NCBI GenBank assembly: GCA_041500405.1
Contig: JBGQMB010000015.1
Span: 1-22,166, forward strand
Source: Candidatus Micrarchaeia archaeon
Lineage (GTDB): Archaea; Micrarchaeota; Micrarchaeia; Anstonellales; J096
DNA: 22,166 bases
Direction: 5' to 3'
The first letter of the stretch is position 1. Each line of letters opens with the position of its first letter. Of this stretch, positions 3,001 to 6,000 are shown piece after piece. Position numbers: made by a program.

Positions 3001-6000
3001 GCGTGCACCCGTCCCCATAATACATCAGTATGCTTACGCTCACGTTCTTCCTGTCGGTCCCGTTCAGGACCTTTTCAACATCCTCGTTGCTGACCTGCTC
3101 TGCGCATCCGCAAATTAGAATAATAACAAACAAGACGGCCAATGCGCCCTTATTCATCCTTCTTCTTCCTCCTTGCCAGGGATGCCAGCGTTCCGCTTAT
3201 CCTTTTTATCTTTATCCTGTCCTTTGAGCACAACAGCGCCGCGGCAACCTCTCTCGCAGAGCTTCTTTCCACCCTTATGGTTTCAGCATTTCCGTCCTTC
3301 CTTATGGGCCTGAACATGATTCTTCCGAAGCCGGATGTGCCGAAAAAGCCGAGCAGGTACGCGCCTATGTCTGTTTTTCCTATATTTTCCAGCTCGATGT
3401 ACCTTGAATCAGGCCTATGCGACGGTTTGTATGTTCTCATTTTAGGTATATCCCCGTTTTCTGGTAATTGCCAATGAATATTGTTGCTATGGACCTTTCA
3501 ATCTCGGAGAACAGCCCGCCGCTTTGGCTCGAGGAGTATGACACTTCGCAGACGTCTGGCTTTTTGTCATATGTCATGTTTGCCAAATCCGCGGCCTTCC
3601 TTATCGCGTCGTCCTTGCTGCCAACCATGTCCGCAAGGCCGTAATTCACCGCCTGCTTTCCGGACACTATCCTGCCGTCTGTAAGGTTTGCCAGGTCAGC
3701 GCTCCTTATCCTGTTGCCCCTGCTTTGCTTAAGCACGTTTACAAAGTCCTGGTAAATCTCGTCTATTATGCCCTGCATTATTGCCGTTTCCTCGGCATCG
3801 GCGGTTTTGTACTCAGAAAGGAAGTCCTTGTGCTCAGCGCTCTTTATCGCGGATATGTTGACGCCCACTTTCTCCATAAGGCCCGTTATGTCCATCGTGA
3901 GCGATATCACGCCTATGCTTCCTGTTATGGTCTCCGGTTCAGTCACTATATAATCAGACCCCAGGGCAACATAATAGCCTCCGCTTGCCGCGGTCTCGTA
4001 AAGGTATGCCACGCTGGTCTTGTTGAGGTTTTTAACCGCCTCGTATATCTGGCGGGACGGTATGACGCTTCCGCCCGGGCTGTTTATTCTCACAACAACA
4101 GCCTTGACCTCATCCCTGCCGTCCAGTGCGGATATAGCGCTGGCAATCTCCTCTCCCCCCGGAGAGCCTGAGGAGAACAGCGTTGCAGGCGTTCCCTCGG
4201 ACGAAATTTCGCCGTCAATGTTCACGACGGCGACGCAGTCCCGGAATGACAGATTGGCAGAGCCGAAGAACATCAGTATGCCGATTGCCGCAAAAAGGCC
4301 TATCGCTATCACCGCGGCGCCGAAGAACACCAACTTCCGCTGCATGTTTTCCCCAACCGAAAACTGCAGTGCGCCATGCTTCCTATAGTCCTTCTGCCCT
4401 GTTCCGTCCATGTAATCCCGATGGTTTGGTATCGTTTTTAAACTTATTGCGGCCATTCATAAACTGCAGGATGATGACGTGAACAACCTCTGATCAATGA
4501 TGAGGCATGACAGCGACTGACTGCTTAAGTCCTTTTTCTTCGCAAAGAAAAAGCACTTGGGGAAAAAGAAGGCAATTTGGGGAAAGAAAAAGCGTTTTGG
4601 GCGAGGATTTCCCTGCTAAAAAAGCAACAGCTTTGCGTACAGTATCGCCACGATTTCACCGCCGAGAAGGAACGGCATGTACGGGGGCATGCCCTTCATC
4701 ACAATTATCCTTTTTATGCCGAGCTTCTTGAGCTTTTTCACTGCGTCCCTTGTCACAAGCGGCGAGGACTTGAAGATATCCTTTGCCCGCTCGTCCAGCA
4801 TCTTGGGGTTCACGACCTCTTCTTCTGCTTCATTGACATCCGCCTCTCCGCTCATTATGGCATCAAGCTCGTCCTTGTACGTATAATATAGGAATGACAT
4901 CAGGCCAAGGCTTATGACAACCGCAAGTATGGCCGGATTGCCTATTGGCGAGTTTACGTACAATGCCGCAAACAAAAGCGTCATTACGGCCATGCTCGCG
5001 CCCTCCAGGTTCATCTTCAGCTTTGCCCCCAGCTTGGCAAGCCTGTATACAAAATACAGGAAGTTGGTTATCGAGAACAGCATGCCGCTGAACAGCAGCA
5101 CGAACAGGATGAACGGGAAATTCAGGAAAACGCCTGCGGCAACAGGCGCTATCGGAAGCAGAAGCGCCATCGACGGTATTATGAACATCTCCGCCCCGCC
5201 CATGTAGCCCATCCTGTAGAACAGGTAGCATATTATCCCTAGCACGATGGCCTGCGCCCCCTCCATCATGATAAGGTCCTTTGGCGCGGGCAGGGCTATG
5301 AGCGCTGAAATAATGAGTACACAGTAAAGCACGCTGTCCGGTATGTTCTTGTTCTTGAAAAGGTCAAAATACGCGCAAACGGCAAGCATAATCAGCGATG
5401 CCACTATCCTGAGCTGCTCAAAAGGCATTTCCGCATATCCCAATATGAATGATATGTCAATCATGGCTTCACCGTGTCAAGGAACCTGTCCCTTATCCTG
5501 GTAACCACAAGACTATCGCACCTGATGTTCTTATGCGTTGCGGTGGAGAAGTTGGGTTCCGTCCTTCCGTTGTCCCCGTTGATAAGCTCCTTTATGTACA
5601 TGCCGGCCTCGCACCCTATTTCGGCATAAAACCCCTTGCCGTCCTTCCCGACTTCCAAGGAGTGGATTTTCCTTTTCCTTGTCAAATCCGCTCTCCTGTT
5701 TATCACGCGCTCGGGCGTCCTCTGGCTTATTGTTATGCCTTCCAGCTTCCTTATTGTTTCCAGGTCCTTTTCATCTATGCTTTCTTCGCTTGAAAAATAA
5801 GCCCTGTATCCCTTGTCAAAATGCGAGTCCGATATTAGGGCGACAAACGACGGATTCACATATCCAATCAGCTTCACTTTCACCCTTTTGTCGGAGTTGA
5901 TTTCGTTTTCCATATCTTTCAGGCCCGTGTCCCTTGCCTTCGCGCCCCTGATTTCCATCACGAACGGCCTGCCGGCAGTGTTGGTCACGTCAATGTCCTC

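What a model noticed while it worked through the whole genome (the two positions that open the first line are those of the whole stretch)
3150..3440. Hidden, relocated Pop5 completes an eroded RNP RNase P in a family that is switching to HARP alone
g546 (96 aa, no row in any table) is a strongly diverged Pop5 moved away from its usual place after Rpp30. With it this genome has a complete but eroded RNP RNase P and no HARP, while 13 of 19 genomes of its family have HARP and no detectable RNase P RNA, Rpp21 or Rpp29, which reads as protein-only RNase P replacing the ribozyme in DPANN archaea.
Evidence so far: Pfam Pop5 is 0 of 19 in the family against 46 of 51 elsewhere in the order. A profile of 14 lineage Pop5 hits g546 first, E 3e-5. 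The top four fold matches are archaeal RNase P chains, among them Pop5 2av5 and 2czv, E about 0.01, probability 0.99-1.0. Family tallies: RNA 6 of 19, Rpp29 6 of 19 (same genomes), Rpp21 5 of 19, HARP 15 of 19 including all 13 without RNA and none in this genus. Rpp30 is also gone from the L15e slot in those genera. Searches 196 and 197 found no report.
(Added by a program. Inside this text positions count along the whole contig: contig position 1 is position 1 of the stretch shown here. "Call 12" and the like, gene names such as g00115 and contig names such as C1 are that model's own, and its searches are not shown. The text may have been shortened before it was handed on; [...] marks where a part breaks off. 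The agent that wrote the report below was given it as the finding of a first reader that could run no searches.)

Follow-up and report, generated by a model that had tools for sequence, protein, structure and literature searches.

The report
Archaea relying on protein-only RNase P

Summary
The 96-aa ORF (3150-3440, minus) is Pop5: an independent profile ranks it first of 12,102 ORFs, the top 13 fold matches are RNase P/MRP chains, and JGI already names 4 of 8 close homologs POP5. Its genome (class Micrarchaeia, from a close relative) has RNA, Pop5, Rpp30, Rpp29, Rpp21 and L7Ae, and no HARP. This RNP is small but under purifying selection (dN/dS 0.2), so it is streamlined, not decaying. The family claim held: 13 of 19 genomes lack RNA, Rpp29, Rpp21, Rpp30 and Pop5 under lineage-specific models, and all 13 carry HARP with intact active-site residues. 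Rpp29 is cleanly missing from an intact ribosomal operon in one genus. New: 11 of 74 sampled genomes of a sister family show the same pattern; none of 70 HARP-less genomes does. tRNA genes of HARP-only genomes are enriched for A at -1, as in Aquifex, though not specifically so within this family. Corrections: Rpp21 is 6 of 19, and this genus probably went the other way and lost HARP. Papers from 2019, 2024 and 2025 state that HARP-bearing archaea all keep the RNP. Earlier scan notes report HARP-only bacteria, none archaeal. No closed genome or assay yet.

The parts
3150..3440 (-). Pop5 subunit of the ribonucleoprotein RNase P, 96 aa, shortened (order median about 110 aa); invariant R13-Y14, G34, G83 and near-invariant R59, S82 across the short-Pop5 alignment
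3437..4456 (-). Signal peptide peptidase SppA (S49), upstream neighbour; its stop overlaps the Pop5 start by 4 nt. Context only, not part of RNase P; same order in G018
2708..3157 (-). Thioredoxin-fold protein with an N-terminal hydrophobic stretch, downstream neighbour; its start overlaps the Pop5 end by 8 nt. Context only; same order in G018

Best explanation
The window gene encodes Pop5. With Rpp30 (G000 C9:14818-15243, 143 aa), Rpp29 (C21:9337-9579), Rpp21 (C4:28602-28838), L7Ae (C22:15100-15375) and a 218-nt RNA (C3:39868-40085) it forms a compact RNA-based RNase P, this organism's only detectable tRNA 5'-trimming enzyme (genes shown; assembly and activity inferred from known archaeal RNase P). 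A HARP gene was most likely gained once in the ancestor of this family and its sister family (inferred). With two enzymes for one job, lineages then lost one or the other. This genus and G043 lost HARP. Three genera of this family (13 genomes) and four genera of the sister family (11 sampled genomes) lost the RNA and the four RNase-P-specific proteins and use HARP alone: an oligomeric PIN nuclease that cuts the leader with four aspartates and binds tRNA through two arginines (residues shown; housekeeping role inferred by elimination and from the A(-1) bias).
For: Identity: Pop5; Rpp30: E 1e-15 with an outgroup-only profile, top 8 folds are RNase P/MRP Rpp30-type chains; RNA; 15, 43, 103. Joint absence: Rfam; lineage covariance model, where the six RNAs score 105-134 bits, two held-out RNAs 107 and 150, and the best hit in the 13 is 16.4 bits and under 110 nt, equal to background in RNA-bearing genomes; unfiltered nhmmer and hmmsearch over the whole G009 assembly, 71% of G025 and 70% of G058; lineage Rpp30, Rpp21 and Pop5 profiles. 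Slots: SUI1 lies directly before S17 in an intact S3-L29-SUI1-S17-L14 operon in 3 of 3 g2 genomes, where all six RNP genomes have Rpp29; Rpp30 missing after L15e in 12 of 12. Among 132 genomes outside the family the number of missing parts out of four is 0 in 100, 1 in 20, 2 in 1, 3 in none, 4 in 11, and all 11 have HARP (tallied). Family HARPs keep D7 (14 of 14 with that end assembled), R125, R129, D138, D142, D160 (15 of 15). A(-1) against A(-3) pattern counts: 176/96 and 77/38 in the two HARP-only sets, 80/79 in 55 sister-family genomes with both, 132/143 in 66 HARP-less genomes outside the family. HARP occurs only in these two families, which are sisters in my tree (SH-aLRT 98).
Against: All genomes are draft assemblies (77-93% complete for the 13). 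Pfam misses every Pop5 and Rpp30 of this family and G028's 98-aa Rpp30 scores only E about 1 with an outgroup profile, so extreme divergence happens here. In g3 and g6 (10 genomes) the operon is broken before S17, so the Rpp29 slot test is clean only for g2, plus G058 where SUI1 abuts a convergent gene. Inside the family the A(-1) bias is not specific: 28/17 with both enzymes, 29/19 with RNP only, 8/6 in g2; kin are not independent. TATA-like boxes in G058 cluster 28-30 nt before the tRNA (14 of 18), which allows very short or no leaders. Four recombinant bacterial HARPs were inactive on pre-tRNA (passage in PMC12153264), so intact motifs do not prove activity. Weak unexplained hits remain: G070 Rpp21 profile E 0.04 in a 195-aa frame, G009 Rpp29 profile E 0.01 in a 50-aa frame opposite another gene. 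The number of losses is open: one clade of g2+g3+g6 is not rejected (p-AU 0.078).
Confidence: 0.8

Rival explanations
1. The 13 (and 11) genomes keep an ultra-reduced, highly diverged RNP, like type T RNase P of Thermoproteaceae, that all my models miss; HARP is an accessory as in other archaea.
For: Type T RNase P long escaped detection and lacks Rpp21 (passages in PMC13462272). Pfam misses the family's Pop5 and Rpp30. G043 has a 179-nt RNA almost without P12 and no Pop5 was found there.
Against: Type T keeps Pop5, Rpp30 and Rpp29; none was found. An outgroup-only RNA profile finds all six family RNAs at E 2e-8 or better and nothing under E 0.17 in the whole G009 assembly. A descriptor needing only CR I, CR IV/V, P4 and P1 finds 36 of 36 known RNAs (it was written from them) and only hits with 2-3 motif mismatches in G009 and G058, none in the held part of G025. 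The Rpp29 and Rpp30 slots are empty. All five parts would have to diverge or move together, and only in HARP carriers.
Confidence: 0.07
2. The RNP is truly gone but nothing replaces it: tRNAs are transcribed without leaders, as in Nanoarchaeum equitans, or are matured with a host's help, and HARP serves another job with the Rnl3 ligase.
For: N. equitans precedent (passages). TATA-like boxes 28-30 nt before the tRNA in 14 of 18 G058 genes. HARP abuts an Rnl3-type ligase in G009, G034, G061, G025 and G031. An A at -1 could also be a transcription start (inference).
Against: 24 of 24 RNP-less genomes carry HARP and none of 70 HARP-less genomes is RNP-less. G058 has a Gly-Arg tRNA pair 14 nt apart with no room for a promoter. 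TATA-like spacing is mostly 32-36 nt in G025 and scattered in G009, like the RNP genome G000. No ligase gene lies next to HARP in the g6 loci and none was found in the held 70% of G058.
Confidence: 0.07
3. The absences come from incomplete or misbinned assemblies.
For: Completeness 77-93%; the RNA is missing in 7 of 121 genomes that have the RNP proteins, e.g. G084 and G096.
Against: Per-part miss rates are 3-6%, about 4e-6 jointly for four unlinked loci; the pattern follows genera (3 of 3, 4 of 4, 6 of 6, 7 of 7); G009 and G025 are 5-contig assemblies at 93% and 91%; the contigs holding the Rpp29 and Rpp30 slots are assembled and the genes are not there.
Confidence: 0.02
4. The RNP of the window's own genome is decaying on its way out, with an unassembled HARP doing the work.
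For: G000 is 86% complete; its Pop5 and RNA are short and the RNA lacks the P15 motif.
Against: HARP not found in 3 of 3 genomes of the genus (86, 92, 77% complete) nor by an unfiltered lineage profile in G000, best E 1; no Rnl3 either. dN/dS 0.21 for Pop5 and 0.20 for Rpp30. A(-1) is depleted in G000, 7 of 42 against 32% background.
Confidence: 0.03

Closest known systems
Archaeal Pop5 (Rpp14/Pop5 family, PF01900): P. horikoshii Ph1481p (2czv), P. furiosus Pop5 (2av5), T. kodakarensis (3wz0), M. jannaschii (6k0a)
   Same: Predicted RRM-like alpha/beta fold (TM-score 0.69-0.73, Z 11.9); the R-Y, G, R and SG(T) motif positions; partner genes Rpp30, Rpp29, Rpp21, L7Ae and RNA in the genome.
   Different: 96 aa against 105-126 residues in those chains; 20-24% identity, below the Pfam cut-off; not next to Rpp30 but inside a SppA-thioredoxin operon.
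Type T archaeal RNase P of Pyrobaculum (PMC13462272, passages read)
   Same: Minimised subunits: Pop5 95-98 aa there, 85-96 aa in this family; short RNA.
   Different: This family keeps Rpp21 and CR II/CR III; G000 keeps P12 and lacks the P15 motif, whereas type T keeps P15-17/P6 and lacks most of the S domain; Rpp30 is shorter still (98-153 aa against about 180).
HARP-only RNase P of Aquificaceae (Aq880; solved HARP chains 7f3e, 8kd9, 7e8j, 7og5)
   Same: PIN_5 protein of about 180 aa, E 1e-32 to 1e-46 to solved HARPs, all tested active-site and tRNA-binding residues kept, no RNP genes, A(-1) bias in tRNA genes.
   Different: Archaeal host; five unlinked genes lost instead of two; close relatives show all three states; the A(-1) bias is weaker (48 of 74 in three genomes against 38 of 44 in Aquifex); activity untested.
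Archaea with both enzymes (H. volcanii, M. mazei, M. thermautotrophicus)
   Same: Same HARP family, often beside Rnl3; G028, G031 and 55 sister-family genomes are in this state.
   Different: There HARP is dispensable and the RNA essential (passages); here 24 genomes have no detectable RNA.
Nanoarchaeum equitans, no RNase P
   Same: DPANN archaeon without RNase P RNA.
   Different: It uses leaderless tRNAs; the genomes here all carry HARP and at least one has a tight tRNA tandem.

Membership tests
Pop5 (Rpp14/Pop5, PF01900), window ORF | Scores over the Pfam cut-off | tested here: not met
   No Pfam hit; but 42 of 52 relatives hit PF01900 at E 0.1 or better and 17 pass the cut-off
Pop5 (Rpp14/Pop5, PF01900), window ORF | Homology to Pop5 by an independent profile | tested here: met
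   First of 12,102 ORFs, E 1.6e-4, profile without family members
Pop5 (Rpp14/Pop5, PF01900), window ORF | Pop5 fold | tested here: met
   pLDDT 82 model; Foldseek ranks 1-13 and VIA-align ranks 1-3 are RNase P/MRP chains
Pop5 (Rpp14/Pop5, PF01900), window ORF | Binds Rpp30 and stimulates the RNA | not tested
   No complex prediction was obtained; no assay possible
Archaeal RNP RNase P in G000 | RNA with CR I-V and P4, plus Pop5, Rpp30, Rpp29, Rpp21, L7Ae | tested here: met
   RNA 66 bits (under Rfam's 84 cut-off, E 1.5e-18) with all core motifs; proteins
Type T archaeal RNase P | No Rpp21, S domain cut to a hairpin | tested here: not met
   Rpp21 in 6 of 6 RNP genomes; CR II, CR III and P12 present in G000
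HARP, in 15 family genomes | PIN_5 (PF08745) over cut-off and similarity to solved HARPs | tested here: met
   15 of 15 over cut-off; G009 and G025 against PDB HARPs
HARP, in 15 family genomes | D7, D138, D142, D160/161, R125, R129 | tested here: met
   Residues from PMC8266387, mapped through, all kept; D7 not assembled in G055
HARP, in 15 family genomes | Oligomer that cleaves pre-tRNA at +1 | not testable with these tools
   Needs purified protein
HARP-only organism (Aquifex type) | No RNase P RNA and no RNP protein subunits | tested here: met
   13 of 13 by family and lineage models; draft genomes only; of the 11 sister-family genomes, 8 were re-tested with the lineage RNA model, 2 with lineage Rpp30, 2 with lineage Rpp21
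HARP-only organism (Aquifex type) | A at -1 of most tRNA genes | tested here: inconclusive
   Enriched in G025 (24 of 33) and G058 (16 of 24), not G009 (8 of 17); order-wide contrast holds, within-family contrast does not
RNase P-less with leaderless tRNAs (N. equitans type) | Promoter at one fixed distance, no 5' leaders, no tandem tRNAs | tested here: inconclusive
   Spacing narrow in G058, wider in G025 and G009; one 14-nt tandem in G058; start sites not measured

The most novel reading that the evidence does not exclude
At least two lineages of Micrarchaeia, in two sister families, have independently discarded the RNase P ribozyme and all four dedicated proteins and live on HARP alone, while sister genera discarded HARP instead. 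These would be the first archaea with a protein-only RNase P as sole enzyme, and one small family would hold all three states of a ribozyme-to-protein hand-over, with tRNA leaders adapting to the new enzyme.
Probability: 0.75. Interest if true: 0.82.

Novelty: new variant of a known kind. Interest (0 to 1): 0.72.

Why it matters
RNase P RNA is one of very few near-universal ribozymes. Papers from 2019, 2024 and 2025 state that HARP is absent from DPANN or that every HARP-bearing archaeon keeps the RNA enzyme, that HARP is not the housekeeping enzyme in archaea, and that Aquificaceae are the only verified HARP-only organisms. Twenty-four genomes here contradict the first two statements. They make open questions testable: what changes let a slow accessory HARP take over, whether tRNA leaders adapt before or after the switch, and how small a working archaeal RNP can be (85-aa Pop5, 98-143-aa Rpp30, 179-nt RNA). 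It also matters for genome checks that demand an RNase P RNA as a sign of completeness (PMC8172020). The window gene itself is an ordinary Pop5.

Tried and rejected
Sequence search of the ORF against PDB: one irrelevant hit, E 0.28. Pfam Rpp30 is useless in this family (0 of 19 at E 0.1; 2 of 151 over cut-off in the order); its three hits in g23 match model positions 7-145 in frames of 586-675 aa and are not the short Rpp30. Weak Pfam Rpp21 hits (E 0.002-0.009) in six RNA-less genomes were not confirmed by the lineage profile, except G070 at E 0.04. The G046 Pop5-profile hit (E 0.003, then 0.02) lies in a 137-aa frame overlapping an unrelated 213-aa frame and lacks a start at the right place; treated as noise. 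Pop5 was not found in G067 (77%) or G043 (86%); unresolved. Slots of the RNA gene, Rpp21 and Pop5 are not conserved enough to test deletions. Minimum-energy folding of the G000 RNA is not significant on its own (z -1.7), as expected for a pseudoknotted RNA. Trees: G148 dropped as a long-branch artefact; 13 of 36 rows left out of the final tree for speed or few columns; branching among g1, g3, g5, g6, g7 is unresolved; the HARP tree neither shows nor rejects a family clade (p-AU 0.43) and has no outgroup, so the donor is unknown. No RNA holder listed for the window. No complex prediction was obtained. G025 and G058 were read only in part (531 of 752 kb, 363 of 518 kb). Literature searches with no report of HARP-only archaea: and the supplement search of PMC12153264; subscription papers (Nickel 2017, Schwarz 2019, Phan 2021, book chapters) and the figshare genome list of Daniels 2019 were not seen.
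Full report
The observation. The window holds a 96-codon ORF at 3150-3440 on the minus strand, wedged between a signal peptide peptidase (4-nt overlap) and a thioredoxin-fold gene (8-nt overlap). The window is contig C15 of G000, an 86% complete assembly. A relative at 77% identity is titled Candidatus Micrarchaeia archaeon, which places the lineage in the DPANN class Micrarchaeia.

It is Pop5. Pfam does not see it, but four other tests agree. 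A profile built from 30 Pop5 proteins of other families ranks it first among 12,102 six-frame ORFs of the genome (E 1.6e-4, next 0.079). Its predicted structure (pLDDT 82) has RNase P/MRP chains at Foldseek ranks 1-13, best E 1.2e-6, and Z 11.9 to P. horikoshii Pop5 against 7.6 for the best unrelated chain. Of 52 relatives, 42 hit PF01900 and 17 pass its cut-off. JGI names 4 of the 8 closest homologs POP5, so the gene is not hidden from every pipeline.

The genome has the full RNA-based enzyme. RNA: C3:39868-40085, 218 nt, E 1.5e-18. Rpp29: C21, between SUI1 and S17. Rpp21: C4. Rpp30: 143 aa right after L15e on C9, E 1e-15 with a profile from other families, top 8 fold matches all RNase P/MRP chains headed by Ph1877. 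L7Ae-family genes are present. HARP was not found in any of the 3 genomes of the genus, nor by an unfiltered lineage profile in G000 (best E 1), which also lacks the Rnl3 ligase.

Streamlined, not decaying. Against the sister species G018, dN/dS is 0.21 for Pop5 and 0.20 for Rpp30. Rpp30 of about 150 aa is usual in this order. Family Pop5 proteins are 85-96 aa against a median near 110 in 16 others; type T Pop5 of Pyrobaculum is 95-98 aa (passages of PMC13462272). The RNA lacks the P15 motif in g1, g5 and g7 (5 of 6 family RNAs) but has it in G028 and 28 of 30 others. Pop5 follows Rpp30 in 9 of 9 loci from other families and in none of 20 loci from the sister family f9 (with coordinates), and it sits in three different places in this family. 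The move is therefore older than this genus.

The family pattern. In 19 genomes: RNA 6, Rpp29 the same 6, Rpp21 the same 6, an Rpp30 ORF after L15e in the same 6, Pop5 in 4 of these 6 (not found in G067 and G043), HARP 15. Thirteen genomes (g2 3, g3 4, g6 6) have HARP only, two have both, four have the RNP only.

Tests of the absences. (a) A lineage covariance model scores the six RNAs at 105-134 bits and two held-out RNAs at 107 and 150; the best hit in the 13 is 16.4 bits and short, the same as background in RNA-bearing genomes. (b) An RNA profile without family members finds all six family RNAs at E 2e-8 or better; run without filters it finds nothing under E 0.17 in the whole 989.5-kb assembly of G009 (5 contigs, 93%), in 531 of 752 kb of G025 or in 363 of 518 kb of G058. 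A descriptor for the catalytic core alone gave only hits with 2-3 mismatches. (c) Unfiltered lineage profiles of the four proteins on the same DNA give nothing better than E 0.01, a 50-aa frame opposite another gene, while G000 controls give 1e-4 to 1e-23. Lineage Rpp30 finds nothing in the other 12; lineage Rpp21 finds the held-out G043 gene and, in the other 12, only E 0.04 in G070 and E 0.1 in long frames of G052. (d) In all 3 g2 genomes the S3-L29-SUI1-S17-L14 operon is intact and Rpp29 is simply missing; in g3 and g6 the operon is broken before S17, so this test does not apply, though in G058 SUI1 abuts a convergent gene. Rpp30 is missing after L15e in 12 of 12.

A second family. In a 151-genome sample of the order, HARP occurs only in this family and in f9 (66 of 74). 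Eleven f9 genomes (g23 7 of 7, g26, g38, g41) lack RNA, Rpp29, Pop5 and Rpp21 together, and all have HARP. Among the 132 genomes outside the family, 100 miss none of the four parts, 20 miss one, 1 misses two, none three, 11 all four (tallied by hand; unlisted negatives inferred from the match tables). Ordinary miss rates are 3-6% per part, about 4e-6 jointly. Eight of the 11 were re-tested with the lineage RNA model, best 13 bits. None of the 70 genomes without HARP lacks the RNP.

The HARPs look intact. They match solved HARPs at E 1e-32 to 1e-46 and keep the aspartates and arginines that PMC8266387 lists as needed (passages): D7 in 14 of 14 with that end assembled, the rest in 15 of 15. In five genomes HARP abuts an Rnl3-type ligase, the link reported in PMC12153264 (first third and passages read).

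A substrate signature, partly. PMC12439589 reports that HARPs prefer A at -1 and that 38 of 44 Aquifex tRNAs have it (passages). A(-1) is 24 of 33 in G025 (background 45%, p 0.001), 16 of 24 in G058 (44%, p 0.02), 8 of 17 in G009 (38%, not significant) and 7 of 42 in G000 (32%). A pattern count over 151 genomes, A(-1) against A(-3), gives 176/96 and 77/38 in the two HARP-only sets, 80/79 in 55 f9 genomes with both enzymes and 132/143 in 66 HARP-less genomes outside the family. Inside the family, however, genomes with the RNP also show 28/17 and 29/19, and g2 only 8/6. The pattern catches about half of the tRNAs and kin are not independent, so this is modest support. A Gly-Arg tandem 14 nt apart in G058 shows a need for 5' cutting.

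History. A tree of nine ribosomal and SUI1 markers (1,089 columns, 23 of 36 rows) makes the family one clade (SH-aLRT 97), sister to f9 (98), with G028 (both enzymes) branching first and g2 next (93, 92); the rest is unresolved. A single HARP-only clade is not rejected (p-AU 0.078). The simplest reading, inferred: one HARP gain before the two families split, then at least two losses of the RNP (one or more in each family) and loss of HARP in g1 and g7.

Against what is known. Daniels 2019 (parts 1-2 of 3 read): HARP absent from all DPANN, and no archaeon with HARP but without RNP proteins. Rossmanith 2024 (passages): all HARP-encoding archaeal genomes also code for the RNA and proteins. Davydov 2025 (passages): Aquificaceae are the only verified HARP-only organisms. 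Searches and a supplement search gave no report of HARP-only archaea; subscription papers were not searchable. Earlier notes of this scan describe HARP-only bacteria (Roizmanbacteria, a Nitrospirota lineage), none archaeal among those shown; I did not test them.

Verdict. The window gene is an ordinary, diverged Pop5 (confidence 0.99). The interest lies in its relatives: RNP loss in HARP carriers is well supported from draft genomes (about 0.88), and HARP as the working enzyme is the best explanation (0.8). HARP-only life is known from bacteria, so this is a new variant of a known kind, but it contradicts explicit recent statements about archaea. Interest 0.72.

Noticed in passing
G043 C15:75899-76077 (L202:2500-2678, minus): A 179-nt RNase P RNA with almost no P12 and no P15 motif, in a genome with Rpp21, Rpp29 and Rpp30 but no Pop5 or HARP found (86% complete); a candidate minimal archaeal RNP.
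   Followed up: partly
L006, L011, L015, L019, L025, L027, L028 and others: Many RNase P RNAs of this order are 201-227 nt with P12 cut to a small hairpin (21-35 nt between CR II and CR III), in several families.
   Followed up: no
G028 C1:158403-158699 (L166:1235-1528, minus): Rpp30 of only 98 aa and Pop5 of 85 aa in a genome that also has HARP: possibly an RNP in real decline.
   Followed up: partly
G009, whole assembly: ARAGORN finds only 20 tRNA genes in a 93% complete, 5-contig genome, 11 of them with introns, several at unusual positions; g2 genomes also give few pattern matches. Many tRNAs may carry several introns.
   Followed up: no
G009 C1:179400-179750 and C2:313770-313900: The 3' end of tRNA-Ala (T arm and acceptor strand) is repeated in units of 110-125 nt downstream of the gene, four copies on C1, with G-run/C-run spacers.
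   Followed up: no
G025 C1, after many tRNA genes: A shared downstream motif (about TAGTAAGAAGGC) follows about ten tRNA genes; G000 has a different shared motif with a T run.
   Followed up: no
G028 C3:11500-16500 (L342): The Rnl3-type ligase sits directly before Rpp21 in G028, away from HARP, while in five other family genomes it abuts HARP.
   Followed up: no
window 8331-8402 (+), 17-1312 (-), 5461-6513 (-): tRNA-His, CCA-adding enzyme and Pus10 lie within 5 kb of Pop5: a loose cluster of tRNA-related genes.
   Followed up: no
window about 11400-22166: A long region of internally repeated units in several frames, consistent with one very large repeat-rich surface protein whose reading frame is not listed because it runs off the contig end.
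   Followed up: no
P0010-P0053: A large set of 86-120 aa Pop5 proteins, most below the Pfam cut-off, exists in metagenomes; Pop5 is probably under-called in many small archaea.
   Followed up: partly
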